A DNA stretch of 64,000 bases from Fimbriosthenelais zetlandica (Eukaryota), in NCBI GenBank assembly GCA_977030845.1, contig OZ365111.1, positions 49,662,001-49,726,000 of the forward strand, in the 5' to 3' direction. The first letter of the stretch is position 1, and each line of letters opens with the position of its first letter. Below are positions 42,001 to 48,000 of the stretch, one piece after another. A program made the position numbers.

Positions 42001-45000
42001 AAATTGTGGGCCCAAAATATATTATAATATCCTTGCTGTTTTAATTTTAACATGGAAAAGTTGAGATATTAATTCTGACAAATTCACACAAATATGAGAT
42101 ATTAATTCTGACAAAATATTATATAAAGTGCAACCACCCCCAGGGCATGCCATGGGCAAATTCTGCCTTTCACGTCAGAAACCAGGGGAAATGAGCAATC
42201 TAATATAGGCCTAGGAGCTAAACATAAAGATGTTTCTAATAGCTACAGCAGATAAGCTAACTCGGTCATACGTTCCTGACATTTTGTTTTGGGTGGTTAG
42301 ACAGTGAATCATAGCGTGGTTTGGAGTAATTTATATGTTTTTAGTGACGATTTAGTGTTCAGATTAATTGTTGTATACAGTATAGAGTCTGGGTTCCTGC
42401 CAAGTGACAACACTTTGTCTGGTATTGTTTACTAAAGCACTTCATAGGCTCAAATGTATGAGAGCAACTCTCAAGTCTGACGTGCAGAAACATGTAAGAC
42501 TCAGTTTGAAATTTCTACTGTTTTTCATTGGAGAAATGCACCACAAATATCAGAAAATGTTCAATAAGTTAGTGATACAATATGAGCCCTGGAAAAAGTA
42601 ATGAAAATGACAACAAATCCTAAGAAAAATTATGACTGAAAATTCCAAAGTTATAGGGAAAGAAGGTGCATCGTGCAAAGAATGGGGCGAAAATATCATA
42701 GAAATTTCTCCTAATATAGCCTAGATTTAAAGAAATCATTTTGAGTTGAGCGAATCCATATAGGAATCGGAAATTGGATCGTTTTTTATTACAGGAATAT
42801 CAGGGCATTGGACTTGTATTCTCTTTTCACGGGGCTGGCCCAGAATTAATATGATCCATATAATAGACTATACATGTATTTGTCAACTATTAAATCGGCA
42901 AATATTCTCCCTGTATACAAAAGGAATGATATATATAAAGATGAGAAATGTGCATGTCTATAGTGTGGCAGAGAAAGAAGCCAGCATGGACCCTGGGGGC
43001 CAGCTGATATGTGTCTGAGAAACGTCAACAAGTGAAGAGGGCAGAGAAACAGGAGCCTTAAATGGATCAAGTGTGGACGGGGGGGGGGGGGTTACACTAG
43101 GCAGAGAGAGTTCCTGGATAATCTATACCACTGACAGAATAGTCTTTACATTCACCCTAAAAAGATCATATAAATGCATTTATTTCGCCAACAAGACAAG
43201 TCTAAATAGAGCACACGTCGCTTTTCTAAATCATGCATGGGACCAACGAGAATAGAAAGCTTCTTTCTATACTGATGGAACGTACCTGCTTTGATAGCTG
43301 CCCTTTTACATTGGTTTTTTTCTTATCCCTCCCCCAATGTCCCCATCTGAGATTCCATGACCTAGCAGACAGGTCTGAAGGTCGCACACTGTGACTGAGT
43401 CATCCTCGCCACAGACACTGAGACTGAAACGCTTCTAGCAAAAACTAAAAGGTCAATGTCAGAAATGGTGAAGTTGAAAGAGAACGCCCGGTTTGTGAGA
43501 TGGAAACTTGTAAATTAATAATATCAGGGTACTCTTCATGTATTCCCATTGTGAACATGAAAATGCAGACTTACCAGACTTAGTATAGTTTCTCTAGGTC
43601 CCATGTGGAGGCCTGGTCCGTTAGGTGTTGCCTGACCTAAGGTCTCTTTTGGAATAGTTCTCGGGTTTCCTGGGGGGAGGGGTTGGATTCTTACGACTGA
43701 ATCTGATTGTATGGAATGTCAAATATAACCATAGCGTGGTGACGACCACACTCACTACACAAAGAAGTCGATCCAAGTTATACTAATCTTGCGAAAACAA
43801 TGCATTTAACATAGGTATAAATATGCAGTTTCCCAATTATCGACAGGATTATAAATGTTCCTAATCCAATGTTTGACACAAAAACCTTTTCCAAAACTTT
43901 CAAAAGCTTACAGAAGAATCTTCAACCCATATAGAAGACTACAAACACAGTATACCTGTGGGCTACCCCGGAAAAGCTATATTGCTTTTCCATCTCCAAT
44001 ACTTTTTATAATGACTAACATTGCCATATTCCTGGACTTTCAGTTCTCCTAATTTAAGCGAAGGTAAGCTTATGCCTTGTACTTAATTGGTGTCCCTAAT
44101 TAGAATAATAGCTCCAGTCTCATCCAGTTATCCAAAGTAAGGTATCTACTCCTGGCACATGATCAGTCTTCTTCTCGTCGCTAATTTTCCACTATTTTCT
44201 GCGTGTATAAGCATCACTAGTGATGGGGAGAAGGAGGAGGAGGGGGTAGAGGAGGAGGGAGAAAGTGTCCCGCTGTGGCTAGAATGAGGCCTCAGCCTCT
44301 GACCCGCGGGAGCTACTCTCCCCAAAATCCATTACAAACTACCGTGGTACATAAGGCAGTGCAAGGTACGGTGGACCAAAACCTTGTAGGCTCGAAGCTT
44401 GATATTTGTGACCCATAACAATTTGTTCCATCACTTAGTTCAAAAGGAAAACATTCTAGATTAAATATTTTGACATGAAAAATAATATGTTGAATAAAAA
44501 TATAATGGAAATGTATCTTTTAATCAAAGGGAACACTAGACTTAGCTGCTAATATTTTTATTGTCATTTGATACCAAATCCATTATCAGAAATACAACAG
44601 GTTCTACGTCAGGTCCATTTCACAAACTATTTTTTCAACCAGAGACAGACAGAATCCTCCTTGAATCATGGTACAACATTAACGATCAGGGTCTTGGTCG
44701 TGCTTTGTGTCGGCACCCCTCTGTCCCGACACTGAATTTCTATCTCATATTTGCTCTTTTCGGCGTGTACAAGGGGAGCTGTTGTGCGGAGGTTGTAGGC
44801 ATATTTCATCCCTTTGATTAATACCAACTTGAACCCAGGTTCATTGATCTCACAGATTATTTCACCCTTTAAACCTTGGTCAGGGTCAAAAAGTGACAGA
44901 TGAGCGACCAGTACATCCGAGTTTGGGGTTTCCTTCACCTGAGCGACTGTGTTGAGAGCCAGTAGATTCAAACTGGGAGAATGGTCGTTCACATCCGTTA

Positions 45001-48000
45001 TATTGACCTCGATCAAAGTATCAGACTGCTTTGGGGGGTTTGCTGAATCGTTACACATAATACGGGCGCTCACTGATTTTTCAACTTCATAGTCAAAACT
45101 CTTGGCCGTGAGGATTTCATAGGAAATGAAATTTCCGTCTTGGCCACTTATTTGTTTCAGTTCAAGGTTTGGACTCTGCATAGAGCAGTTGACCTTTCCA
45201 TGGCTGACTTTATCAGTGTCGTAGACAGCAACATGTCCTACCAGAGTATTAGCAGGTTCGTTCTCGCTCACTTCCATCTGACCATTGCTACTTTGGGGGA
45301 AGGTTTGAATTATCGGGACTGCTTCATTTATATCAATGACATCAATGGTAAAGTTCTTTGACAGGCTCAGGGGAGGGTCTCCTTTGTCCGTGCAAATGAA
45401 TTCAACTTCGTATCTACTGCACTCTTCGTAATTCAGCGGTTTTATGGAGGCCAGACTGTAGTAATCAGCACCAACGTATTTCTCAACGGTGAAGTGGTTG
45501 TATGGGTCCTTGGCATGACACTCAATGCGACCAGCAATGCCAGCATCATCATCAGTCACATAGATTCTGACTGCAGTTGATCCGTAGCGAAGCTCCTCCG
45601 TGATATTGAACGGACCTGTCGGGGGCTTAATCTCGACAATCTTGGGTTTGTACTCATTTTCATCCAGGAGGTAGAGTTTAAGGGTTCGTACCGTAGACCG
45701 AGGAGTTTCCCCATGATCAGTGCAATTAATGGGTATTTTGTACATTCGCTGTTCCTCGAGGTCAAATACTTTTGTGGTTACAACCTGGTATTTATTTTGA
45801 CTCAGTTCTTCTAGGGCAAAACCTGTAGTCTTGATACTACAATTGACTTCTGCATTATGTCCTTCATCACGGTCAGCTACTAAAACCTGAGCGATAATTT
45901 GACCAGGTGGTTTATTTTCCACCATTTCAGCCATGTCATGGTACCTGGATGTACTGAGGGTAATTTGAGGGCTGTTATCATTGACATCAGTAACTATAAT
46001 GGTCAGATGGACTTCCCTTATTGGCCTTGAGCGGAGACATGAACTGAAGACCTGGATGGTAGTATTGATCATTGGTGTTACCTCACGATTAATTCCACGT
46101 CTTGTATTCATAACACCAGTCCTTGGGTTAACATAAAAGTATGATCCCAACTGTTTAAATTCGAGCTTTTCATTTTGACATCCAGGAAGACCGGTGTCAT
46201 CTAGTTTCACCATGAAGGTCCCGTGTGGTTGATTCTCTGGTAAGGTGATTGTCTGGTTGACGATCCTCGTGTCAGTACGCCGGTCAGCGGACGACAGATG
46301 GTGGGTGAGGATGAGAAGCCACGTCCAGCTAACAATTGACAGGTGTCTTACTGAAGCCATCTGAAAGACAAATTAGTTATACACCGGTTTGGTGGCTTCT
46401 TTTGACAATAAAGGCAATTACAGATAGCCAAATTGATAGCCCTGCCACCTATAGTGTATGAAGAAAAACCTCCACTCGTAGACATCGCTACTTCCGGTTT
46501 ATGTGTATTGCCATAGGTTTGAAGTGGGGAATACACAAACGGTTCACAGAAAACCTTTTCCAAATTGTGTATAATATGTCCCCTTTCCACTTTTCAGTGG
46601 ATGACAAATGCCTTTTACATTCAGTTCTGCTCACAGTACTTGCATAGAGAAGTCAATTAAATCAGCTATATTATTGATATCACTACACTTGGGTAGGCCT
46701 ACCCTGAGGCCCCATGTACTTTATTACTTTGACTAGTAAGAAACAAGAAGCGGAAATATAGCTGACTATATAGCTGAATGCTTCTGTTGCTTTAAATTGT
46801 ATTATTTTGACCATTGGGTAGCCTAATACACTACAATTAGCCTAGTGTAGCCTACTCTAAATTGCATTCAGAAAATAGTTTACGCTGCAAAAATTAGGAT
46901 AATTATGCCTATTATATCATATTGCTAAAATGATTATATAATTGATTGACAATTCTCAAGATTACCCATATATAGGACATGCTTAATGCATTTCGTCATG
47001 AATCACTAGGCCCTATATATAATAGGCTATGCACGACTATTTATATTTATAATATTGCCATGCAAATTTATTCCTGGCAAAAGTAATGGGTTCTGGAATT
47101 GGATACAATAATATAGCCCTAATTGAATGAGAAATTATGGATACGGTAGCCTACTATTCATTACCTGAGGGGTTGGGGTGGGGTGGGGTGGGTGGGGAGT
47201 AAGATTTCTTTTAGTAGTCCCCTACCAGAAAATATTCACACCGTTGTCAATTTTGAGGAAAGTTCATGTCATAAAAGAACTAACTTCTTTCCTAAATGGC
47301 GATTGAAGAAGGTGCTAGAAGTCTGAATTCAGCGATTTAATATGTTTTAGTTTTGACTTAAAACAGATAGGCTATATAATAGCTGCTAGCTCCTTGAATA
47401 GCATAAATTTCCTAAATATTTCCTAAAGGGCATGAATAAGTTCGGACTTAACACTATAGGATCTCTATGGCCTATAGGCCTATTCATTTTAATACAAAAC
47501 AGTGAAATGAATTTGTGTAAATTTGTTTAAAATGTAGGCCTAATTACGCTATTTAATATGAAAATAAATTGTCACCAGACTCAAACTCAAGAAAGGTATT
47601 ATATTAGGCCTATTCTGAAGGGATAAAACTGGAACTTACTTTAATGTTGCCAGCTTTAGCCTATACCGAGACCTGTATAAGGTTTTTGGTGTCTCATCTA
47701 CGGAAGCCCAATGTGGAGTGCCACATACTGTCCTCTAACATATGACTTTTTATTATGATGTGTAATAAATAATGTCTAGGTCTGGATTGTGGCCCCTGGG
47801 GACGAGGGTGAGATGGGGGTGGGGTGGGGGTTAGCCTTGTATAGACAATATATATCCGGAAACCAGCATATTAAAAATGCACATATTATCATTTATGATA
47901 GTCAATCATCATTCACCATTTCCATGTAAAGTAGGCCTACATTAGTAGGGTAATAGACCTATACAGGCATTGTAACTCTATCTCTAGTCTACTGGAAAAC

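What the first reader, a model, noticed from the sequence alone, without database searches (positions are those of the whole stretch)
44600..46360. Protocadherin-like ectodomain that stops after EC5 with no membrane anchor
Seen: signal peptide plus 5 EC repeats, then ...LIVNVVP-stop exactly where the next DxNDN linker should be. I found no TM-coding sequence after the stop and no convincing downstream TM exon. Several Ca2+ motifs are degenerate (INRE, DENEYKP, DINEAVP, VHAEK in EC5). Established: protocadherins normally have 6-7 EC repeats, a TM helix and a cytoplasmic tail. Inference: either a secreted or decoy cadherin (matrix or adhesive component, or competitor of membrane protocadherins) or a recently truncated gene. 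The 1.7-kb intact frame argues against long decay.
Basis: partly seen in the sequence, partly recalled or inferred. Interest (0 to 1): 0.65.

Follow-up and report, generated by a model that had tools for sequence, protein, structure and literature searches.

The report
Anchorless five-repeat cadherin gene, annelid-like genome
An intact gene in a worm-like (annelid) genome encodes five cadherin adhesion repeats that run into a stop codon instead of a membrane anchor, so the protein is probably secreted, though a small possible anchor-coding exon lies 0.9 kb further on.

Summary
The open frame is real. On the minus strand, ATG 46360 to TGA 44668-44666 gives 564 codons: a signal-peptide-like start and five cadherin (EC) repeats (Pfam E 3.7e-52; AlphaFold2 pLDDT 89).

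EC5 is not cut off before a sixth repeat. It has the signature of a natural last, membrane-proximal repeat: no DRE motif, no DxNDN linker, and a short profile end. This matches 107 of 107 last repeats of anchored homologues and contrasts with about 540 of 546 internal repeats. No other EC fragment exists in the 64 kb. Only the stalk, TM helix and tail are missing.

Read as it stands, the exon gives a secreted protein, with AATAAA 104 nt after the stop. It encodes a TM-like helix, a basic stop-transfer cluster and a roughly 30-residue tail. Its chance rate is about 0.01-0.04 per strand-kb, judged post hoc. The only usable splice donors are very weak.

My best reading is a secreted product, possibly switched with an anchored isoform. 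No relative above 31% identity was found and no transcript data were available. EC2-EC5 each carry an unusual cysteine pair. The window is annelid-like, not human.

The parts
46361..46372 (-). Acceptor-like tract (tttgtctttcag) directly before the ATG. It suggests an upstream 5'UTR exon.
   Evidence: Read directly from the sequence. An in-frame TAA just upstream closes the frame.
46286..46360 (-). Signal-peptide-like start, residues 1-25: a basic n-region, a hydrophobic core of about 13 residues, and S-S-A before the predicted cut.
   Evidence: Sequence. AlphaFold2 gives residues 1-30 pLDDT below 50, with EC1 starting at residue 33. No signal-peptide predictor was available, so this is a rule-of-thumb call.
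45977..46264 (-). EC1 (residues ~33-128), with a canonical DVNDN linker. The DRE position reads N-R-E.
   Evidence: Pfam Cadherin_FAT4_N scores 32.8 bits, below its 35-bit cut-off.
45653..45976 (-). EC2 (residues ~129-236), linker DENEY, cysteine pair C174/C213.
45323..45652 (-). EC3 (residues ~237-346), linker DINEA, cysteine pair C281/C323.
44972..45322 (-). EC4 (residues ~347-463), canonical DVNDH linker, cysteine pair C392/C436.
44669..44971 (-). EC5 (residues ~464-564), a terminal-type repeat. DxD is kept; DRE reads V-H-A; there is no linker motif; the profile match ends at column 94 of 99. Cysteine pair C503/C544.
   Evidence: The last strand, 553-563, is confident in the model.
44666..44668 (-). 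TGA stop, two codons after the last strand of EC5.
44672..44683 (-). The three in-phase (phase 0) GT dinucleotides that could act as splice donors without damaging EC5: ATC|GTTAAT, AAT|GTTGTA and GTT|GTACCA. All are weak.
   Evidence: For comparison, 5 of 5 neighbouring SNF-gene exon ends show GTGAGG, GTGAGT, GTGAGC, GTAAGC or GTAACT.
44557..44562 (-). AATAAA 104 nt after the stop, followed by CA and a T/GT-rich stretch. ATTAAA follows at 44524.
   Evidence: The background rate of AATAAA is 1.03 per strand-kb, so this alone is weak evidence.
43783..43791 (-). Acceptor-like end (pyrimidine tract ... attag) directly before the candidate exon. A competing AG 5 nt upstream (43789-43788) would give a stop.
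   Evidence: Read from the sequence.
43621..43782 (-). Candidate anchor mini-exon of 53 codons plus TAA (43623-43621). It encodes a 5-residue stalk, an uncharged hydrophobic stretch of 18-21 residues (43767-43705), the basic cluster RFSRK, and a proline-rich tail.
   Evidence: Searched on its own, it has no homologue. Codon usage is uninformative.
43179..43184 (-). Next AATAAA on this strand, about 440 nt after the candidate exon's stop.

Best explanation
This is an intact, lineage-specific cadherin gene of an annelid-like genome. One large exon encodes a signal peptide and a complete array of five EC repeats.

EC5 is the natural last repeat. Nothing is missing from the adhesive rod; only the stalk, TM helix and cytoplasmic tail are absent from this exon.

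Shown: the exon as it stands ends in VP-TGA and is followed by AATAAA 104 nt later. An unspliced transcript would therefore give a secreted, N-glycosylated, calcium-stiffened five-EC protein.

Inferred: part of the transcripts may instead be spliced from one of three weak phase-0 GTs (44683-44674) into a mini-exon at 43782-43624. That exon supplies a TM helix, a basic stop-transfer cluster and a tail of about 30 residues. This would be a switch between secreted and anchored forms, decided by competition between a weak 5' splice site and an intronic poly(A) site. The same logic is recalled for immunoglobulin mu-s/mu-m, and it is described for soluble FLT1 and soluble PCDH15.

The secreted form would act as a soluble or matrix-bound binding partner or competitor of cadherin-type contacts. 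The anchored form would be a short-tailed adhesion or recognition molecule.

My odds: about 0.65 that a secreted product is made at all, and about 0.4 for the full switch model.
For: - Five confident EC domains and an intact frame.
- EC5 is terminal-type. Among the 107 of 120 homologues that have a TM within 120 residues of their last EC, 107/107 last ECs lack the linker motif while 539/546 internal ECs have it. The last-EC profile end has a median of column 95, against 99 for internal ECs.
- DRE-Asp is present in 0/107 last ECs against 511/546 internal ECs. DxD is kept in 106/107 last ECs. Window EC5 has no linker, reads V-H-A at DRE, keeps DxD, and ends at column 94.
- No other EC fragment occurs in 2150 six-frame ORFs; the next best E-value is 4.9. 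It also does not appear in tblastn with 120 homologues.
- AATAAA and ATTAAA lie 104 and 142 nt after the stop.
- There are nine N-x-S/T sequons against 5.2 expected.
- Under composite criteria, the TM-like mini-exon is 1 of only 2 hits in 84 strand-kb outside known TM-protein genes. The same criteria recover 4 exons of the neighbouring SNF and UNC-93-like genes.
- Null rates are 0.008-0.04 per strand-kb in reversed and block-shuffled sequence.
- The acceptor phase of the mini-exon matches the only GTs available near the stop, all phase 0.
- Precedent: soluble versus membrane PCDH15 by alternative last exon (PMC10562862, abstract and passages).
Against: - The three candidate donors lack the consensus. 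None has R at +3 with A at +4, and none has G at +5. In contrast, 5 of 5 exon ends that I located in the neighbouring SNF gene have GT(A/G)A. I picked those ends myself where the Pfam matches stop, so they are not transcript-verified.
- An AG 5 nt upstream of the needed acceptor would compete and would give a stop.
- The stalk would be only 5 residues. In 107 homologues it is 9-32 residues, median 20.
- The TM criteria were set after I had seen the candidate, so the 1-4% figure is optimistic. Over the 6.4 kb of unassigned DNA the figure is 5-23%.
- Codon usage does not separate the mini-exon from non-coding frames: it sits at the 73rd percentile of 387 null ORFs.
- The mini-exon peptide finds no relative.
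- There are no transcript data and no orthologue. All relatives are at or below 31% identity, so expression, selection and conservation of the stop are all untested.
- The XEX glutamate of EC5 is kept, which only 2/107 last ECs do.
Confidence: 0.4

Rival explanations
1. Secreted only. The gene ends at the TGA and uses the AATAAA at 44562. The TM-like frame 0.9 kb downstream is a chance frame or an old relic that is no longer used.
For: - Stop plus poly(A) signals.
- All in-phase donors are poor compared with 5 of 5 neighbouring donors.
- A competing AG sits upstream of the acceptor, and the stalk would be 5 residues, outside the homologue range of 9-32.
- Codon usage is uninformative and the mini-exon has no homologue.
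- TM-like frames at the looser cut-off are common: 12 in 17 kb.
Against: - Under the composite criteria, such a frame is rare in null sequence at 0.008-0.04 per strand-kb. Here one lies within 0.9 kb, on the right strand and in the right phase.
- Nearly all relatives are anchored: 107 of 120 have a TM after the last EC, and the rest look partial.
Confidence: 0.25
2. Constitutively anchored. The TGA lies in an intron that is always removed, and the protein is an ordinary type I membrane cadherin with a short tail.
For: - The prior from the family: 107 of 120 homologues are anchored.
- The TM-like mini-exon is in phase and has an acceptor-like tract.
Against: - Efficient splicing from GTTAAT, GTTGTA or GTACCA is unlikely.
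- The stop comes at most two codons after the last usable donor, and canonical poly(A) signals sit inside the would-be intron.
- The stalk would be very short.
Confidence: 0.12
3. A dying gene. This was an anchored cadherin whose donor (or contiguous stalk/TM coding) decayed recently, leaving an open but unused or unselected ectodomain frame.
For: - No close relative exists in about 15 billion proteins; all are at or below 31% identity.
- Three DRE or linker positions are conservatively altered: N-R-E, N-Y-E, and DENEY/DINEA.
- The weak GTs could be a decayed donor.
- Truncated protocadherin-like frames taken for pseudogenes are reported in cephalopods (PMC9068888, passages).
Against: - The frame is 564 codons with no lesion.
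- All five domains fold confidently.
- The calcium ligands of all four linkers are largely kept, and the cysteine pair is kept in four repeats.
- No TM relic lies directly after the stop in any frame.
- No repeat ends or target duplications bracket 44666-43783.
Confidence: 0.13
4. The anchor lies elsewhere (a TM exon beyond the window or undetected), or the stop is an assembly error.
For: - Only 44.6 kb downstream could be examined.
- The assembly has at least one gap, at 25080-25247.
Against: - The DNA downstream on this strand holds genes on the other strand: UNC-93-like copies and tektin.
- No simple frameshift gives a TM after the stop.
Confidence: 0.1

Closest known systems
Clustered and delta protocadherins (e.g. 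Pcdh gamma-B4, PCDH10, Pcdh8.1, PCDH1)
   Same: - They are the best sequence hits among proteins of similar length (24-29% identity, up to 208 bits).
- They are the best structural matches (6e6b, 6vg4, 6vg1, 5t9t; Foldseek E about 1e-37).
- The whole EC array lies in one large exon.
- The last EC lacks DRE and DxNDN.
   Different: - It has five ECs. By my profile, the 120 homologues had 6 ECs (94), 7 ECs (14), 5 ECs (10) or 8 ECs (2).
- There is no TM or cytoplasmic domain in the exon.
- Pfam Cadherin_2 (the protocadherin EC1 model) was not reported at E<=0.01.
- EC1 has no short Cys-loop: its cysteines are 47 residues apart, whereas PCDH1 has C66-C75 and clustered and delta-2 proteins have 7-residue loops (PMC6769022, passages).
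- A cysteine pair is present in every one of EC2-EC5.
Seven-EC invertebrate-type or delta1-like protocadherins among the hits (P0001, P0003, P0013, P0017, P0022, and P0043 from Octopus vulgaris)
   Same: - They share the cysteine pair at profile columns 34 and 76. In the hits this pair occurs in 12 of 732 ECs, always in EC4 (Fisher p about 1e-13).
- Window EC2-EC5 each score best against EC4 of these proteins (10-11 of 14 proteins for each repeat).
   Different: - They have the pair in one repeat only, where the window protein has it in four.
- They have 7 ECs, a stalk of 9-32 residues, a TM and a long tail.
- Identity is only 21-25%.
Soluble cadherin or receptor isoforms made by alternative last exon or intronic polyadenylation (sPCDH15, sFLT1; immunoglobulin mu-s/mu-m, recalled)
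   Same: The layout is the same: an ectodomain exon, then a stop and a poly(A) signal in the following intron, with the TM exon further downstream. Sources: PMC10562862 (abstract and passages); sFLT1 from the search listing only.
   Different: There is no transcript evidence here. PCDH15 is a far larger, unrelated cadherin, so this is a likeness of mechanism, not of family.
T-cadherin (CDH13)
   Same: It has five EC repeats and no TM or cytoplasmic domain (recalled).
   Different: T-cadherin is a classical-type cadherin with a prodomain and a GPI signal (recalled). The window protein ends right after the last strand with no C-terminal hydrophobic signal, and its best matches are protocadherins.

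Membership tests
Cadherin superfamily | Tandem EC repeats of about 110 residues | tested here: met
   Five Pfam Cadherin stretches with E 3.7e-52. Five seven-stranded domains in the model at pLDDT 89.
Cadherin superfamily | Interdomain calcium motifs (XEX, DRE, DxNDN, DxD) | tested here: met
   All four linkers match D-x-[ND]-[DE]. XEX Glu is present in all 5 ECs and DxD in EC2-5. DRE reads NRE, DLE, NYE and DYE in EC1-4.
Protocadherins (clustered / delta) | Six or seven EC repeats | tested here: not met
   Five ECs, with no further EC fragment in 2150 frames of the window.
Protocadherins (clustered / delta) | EC array encoded by one large exon | tested here: met
   A single 1.7-kb frame from the ATG to the end of EC5.
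Protocadherins (clustered / delta) | TM helix (and the start of the tail) following the last EC in the same exon | tested here: not met
   The stop comes two codons after EC5, and no TM follows in any frame directly after it. There is a candidate separate exon at 43782-43624.
Protocadherins (clustered / delta) | Protocadherin-type EC1 (Pfam Cadherin_2; short disulfide loop between strands E and F) | tested here: not met
   Cadherin_2 was not reported at E<=0.01. Only Cadherin_FAT4_N appeared, at 32.8 bits, below its cut-off. EC1 cysteines are at residues 61 and 108. The loop is described in PMC6769022.
Protocadherins (clustered / delta) | Closest similarity in sequence and fold to protocadherin ectodomains | tested here: met
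   Giant FAT/CELSR-type cadherins score higher only by summing many repeats.
Protocadherins (clustered / delta) | Family-specific cytoplasmic motifs (CM1/CM2, constant region) | not testable with these tools
   There is no established cytoplasmic domain. The candidate tail of about 30 residues has no homologue.
T-cadherin-like GPI-anchored cadherins | C-terminal hydrophobic GPI signal | tested here: not met
   The protein ends ...LIVNVVP, which is the last beta strand.
Secreted/anchored switch genes (alternative last exon type) | Two mRNA 3' ends, one in the intron before the TM exon | not testable with these tools
   Only the DNA layout is visible: a stop, AATAAA at 44562, the TM-like exon, and AATAAA at 43184. 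No transcript collection was open.

The most novel reading that the evidence does not exclude
An annelid cadherin whose five-repeat rod is stapled by a strand C-strand F disulfide in each of EC2-EC5. In relatives this pair occurs only in EC4. The protein is toggled between a secreted matrix or decoy form and a short-tailed membrane form, by competition between a deliberately weak 5' splice site and an intronic poly(A) site. That would be immunoglobulin-type secretion logic in an adhesion molecule of a spiralian.
Probability: 0.25. Interest if true: 0.6.

Novelty: new variant of a known kind. Interest (0 to 1): 0.4.

Why it matters
Cadherins are, almost by definition, membrane-anchored. [quoted passage not shown] A dedicated secreted, or switchable, five-repeat cadherin would be a soluble player in calcium-dependent recognition.

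The cysteine pair repeated in four domains would be a simple, testable way of stiffening EC domains independently of calcium.

The practical point is for annotation. The missing DRE and DxNDN motifs of the last repeat distinguish 'array complete, look only for a small anchor exon' from 'gene truncated'. That rule held for 107 of 107 anchored homologues here.

Tried and rejected
- **Further EC exons.** I ran tblastn with 120 homologues (the relaxed run gave only noise, best E 0.076). I also ran my EC profile against 2150 frames. Neither found anything.
- **Pfam on other frames.** I scanned 337 other frames of the window (109 + 80 + 148). No cadherin appeared, only SNF, UNC-93 and a repeat.
- **Frameshift or read-through.** The other two frames after the stop close within about 22 codons. 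Read-through of the TGA adds 13 residues without a TM. Rfam found no SECIS element at gathering threshold; its only match was one tRNA-like hit.
- **Insertion between EC5 and the TM-like frame.** No terminal inverted repeats or target duplications were found beyond chance 10-18-mers. There is no copy elsewhere in the window.
- **Positional matching of EC5 to the last EC.** Pairwise scores were inconclusive: EC2-5 all score best against EC4. Generic ECs of giant cadherins also prefer EC3-5 (20, 15 and 13 of 60). The motif test settled the point instead.
- **Codon-usage log-odds of the mini-exon.** This has no power, because true SNF and UNC-93 exons overlap the null distribution.
- **Exact look-ups.** I looked up the 564-residue protein, the tektin and the GPCR. 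None is in the collection. In one search the cadherin lacked its Met; I repeated it correctly.
- **Mini-exon peptide searched alone.** There was nothing at E<=1, from only 3 candidates.
- **Literature.** Searches for annelid protocadherins and for secreted cadherins gave no description of such a gene. These are word searches of open-access text only.
- The bacterial promoter and terminator scan is irrelevant to a eukaryotic gene and I ignored it.
- **ARAGORN.** It found no tRNA.

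
Full report
**What is there.** On the minus strand a frame is open from 46372 to 44666. Its ATG is at 46360-46358 and sits directly behind an acceptor-like tttgtctttcag. The frame ends ...LIVNVVP-TGA, with the stop at 44668-44666. The 564-residue product has several features of an extracellular protein.
- It has a signal-peptide-like start. This is a rule-of-thumb reading, and residues 1-30 are disordered in the model.
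- It has five cadherin repeats (Pfam Cadherin, 5 stretches, E 3.7e-52). My own EC profile places them at 35-128, 141-236, 249-346, 359-459 and 470-563.
- AlphaFold2, run with a 68-row alignment, gives mean pLDDT 89.2. It shows seven strands per repeat and a confident last strand at 553-563.
- Foldseek against the PDB puts protocadherin ectodomains first: 6e6b, 6vg4, 6vg1 and 5t9t, at E about 1e-37 and 20-22% identity.
- There are nine N-glycosylation sequons against 5.2 expected.

**Whose genome.** The window is not human.
- An intronless tektin ORF at 25981-27489(+) is 79% identical to Platynereis dumerilii tektin 3/5A and 74% identical to the Dimorphilus and Owenia proteins.
- The cadherin's best relatives of similar length reach only 24-29% identity and 208 bits (181 hits among 6806 candidates).
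- A HMMER pass over 1.84 billion representatives lists only giant multi-repeat cadherins of 1528-7984 residues at 24-31% identity. An orthologue above roughly 35% identity would have made that list.
- The exact protein is not in the collection.

The source species and its near relatives are thus absent from the protein sets. No test of conservation was possible.

**The key correction: EC5 is a natural last repeat.** I segmented the 120 homologues with the EC profile. Of these, 107 have a TM helix within 120 residues of their last EC.

| Feature | Last ECs (n=107) | Internal ECs (n=546) |
|---|---|---|
| Linker motif present | 0 | 539 |
| Profile end, median column | 95 | 99 |
| DRE aspartate present | 0 | 511 |
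| XEX glutamate present | 2 | 535 |
| DxD kept | 106 | 495 |

The DxD motif serves the preceding linker, which explains why last ECs keep it. Window EC5 has no linker motif, reads V-H-A at DRE, keeps DxD, and ends at column 94. Its one departure is that it keeps the XEX glutamate.

The 'degenerate VHAEK' and the missing linker are therefore what a terminal repeat looks like. No other EC fragment exists anywhere in the 64 kb. The adhesive array is complete at five repeats. What the exon lacks is the stalk (9-32 residues in homologues, median 20), the TM helix and the tail. A recent truncation inside a 6-7-repeat array is rejected.

**After the stop.** No TM is encoded directly after the stop in any frame. 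AATAAA lies 104 nt after the stop (44562-44557) and ATTAAA 142 nt after it. AATAAA occurs about once per strand-kb, so this alone is weak evidence.

Further on, the frame 43782-43624 encodes:
- five residues;
- an uncharged hydrophobic stretch of 18-21 residues;
- the basic cluster RFSRK;
- a proline-rich tail, followed by TAA.

It starts right after a pyrimidine tract ending in TAG, which is an AG acceptor in phase 0. The only GTs that could serve as donors without cutting into EC5 are at 44683, 44677 and 44674, and all three are in phase 0.

I applied composite criteria to judge chance. They required a hydrophobic uncharged window, at least two K/R within eight residues after it, and an in-frame NAG within 13 codons before it. 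Only 2 frames pass in 84 strand-kb outside known TM-protein genes, and this is one of them. The same criteria recover four exons of the neighbouring SNF and UNC-93-like genes. Reversed and block-shuffled sequence give 0.008-0.04 hits per strand-kb. That puts the chance figure at roughly 1-4% within 1 kb, or 5-23% over the 6.4 kb of unassigned DNA. I set the criteria after seeing the candidate, so these figures flatter it.

**Against splicing.**
- The three donors (GTTAAT, GTTGTA, GTACCA) are poor. At five exon ends of the neighbouring SNF transporter gene I found GTGAGG, GTGAGT, GTGAGC, GTAAGC and GTAACT. I located those ends myself where the Pfam matches stop, so they are not transcript-verified.
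- An AG five bases upstream of the needed acceptor would compete and leads to a stop.
- The stalk would be five residues, shorter than in any of the 107 homologues.
- Codon usage is uninformative.
- The mini-exon peptide, searched on its own, has no relative.

**Reading.** The plain reading is a secreted five-EC cadherin. The combination of a weak donor, a stop and poly(A) signals just inside the would-be intron, and a small TM exon downstream is the layout of genes that switch between secreted and anchored forms. Soluble PCDH15 by alternative last exon is one example (PMC10562862, abstract and passages). Soluble FLT1 is another (search listing only). Immunoglobulin mu is a third, recalled from memory.

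I rate a secreted product at about 0.65 and the full switch at about 0.4. The rivals are:
- secreted only (0.25);
- always anchored (0.12);
- a dying gene (0.13);
- anchor elsewhere or an assembly error (0.1).

EC2, EC3, EC4 and EC5 each carry cysteines at profile column 34 and column 76.
- Column 34 has consensus Tyr and lies on strand C. Column 76 has consensus Ala and lies on strand F, two residues before the Asp of the A-x-D-x-G motif.
- The residues are C174/C213, C281/C323, C392/C436 and C503/C544.
- Among 732 homologue ECs, both cysteines occur together in 12, and always in EC4. A further 35 have only the first cysteine and 2 only the second (Fisher p about 1e-13). These 12 are probably orthologous, so this may reflect a single event.
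- Human PCDH1 EC4 has only the lone, partly buried C375 (PMC6769022, passages).
- Strands C and F are neighbours in the cadherin sandwich (recalled), so a disulfide is plausible. The tool returns no coordinates, so I could not measure the distance.

**Comparison and novelty.** By sequence and fold the protein is protocadherin-like. It fails several defining features:
- the number of repeats;
- a TM in the same exon;
- the protocadherin-type EC1 model and its short Cys loop.

It is not T-cadherin-like, because it has no GPI signal. Cephalopod papers describe multi-exonic protocadherins, truncated frames taken for pseudogenes, and only a handful of protocadherins in other spiralians (PMC9068888 and PMC6339937, passages). 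My three literature searches found no description of a secreted annelid cadherin. These were word searches of open-access text only.

I file it as a new variant of a known kind, of moderate interest. The interest depends on transcript evidence that I could not obtain.

Noticed in passing
window 45839-45841/45722-45724, 45518-45520/45392-45394, 45185-45187/45053-45055, 44852-44854/44729-44731 (codons of C174/C213, C281/C323, C392/C436, C503/C544): A cysteine pair at equivalent strand C and strand F positions in each of EC2-EC5. In 120 homologues the pair occurs in 12 of 732 ECs, always in EC4. It may be an intradomain disulfide staple.
   Followed up: partly
window 25981-27489 (+): An intronless 503-codon tektin-3-like ORF (Pfam Tektin E 9e-142; 79% identical to Platynereis tektin 3/5A). 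It sits in a 2-kb bin of 50% G+C against about 38% around it, so it may be a retrocopy or an intron-poor gene. An assembly gap (N run) lies just upstream at 25080-25247 and was left untouched.
   Followed up: partly
window ~29005-34420 and ~34690-39140 (+): A tandem duplication of about 5 kb at 89-99% identity. Each copy carries an UNC-93-like exon (31603-31872 and 36780-37040, the same profile segment 133-211). The ORF 37877-38275 looks like a TM-rich last exon.
   Followed up: partly
window 12228-12492, 14155-14225, 32383-32623, 37230-37665, 52902-53418, 55303-55518, 57282-57352: An interspersed family of 42-44-nt tandem repeats (core ...GGCCAGCCATGTCTGCCACTGTCT...) at seven places. It creates spurious open frames, for example 32381-32833(-) and a Pfam CRA_rpt hit.
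   Followed up: no
window 8465-16413 (+): A multi-exon sodium:neurotransmitter symporter (SNF) gene. Five exons were seen by Pfam, with canonical GT(A/G)A donors and long pyrimidine-tract acceptors.
   Followed up: partly
window 20812-22080 (-): A single-ORF 423-residue rhodopsin-type GPCR (Pfam 7TM_GPCR_Srw E 4e-16; 7tm_1 E 6e-9).
   Followed up: no
window 17432-17502 (-): A tRNA-like match in Rfam (32.7 bits, gathering score 29) that ARAGORN does not call. It is probably a tRNA-derived repeat or pseudogene. C-rich 83-nt direct repeats lie nearby at 17587-17850.
   Followed up: partly
window ~19276 (-): The only other frame outside known TM genes that met my TM-exon criteria. It lies downstream of the GPCR on the same strand and remains unexplained.
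   Followed up: no
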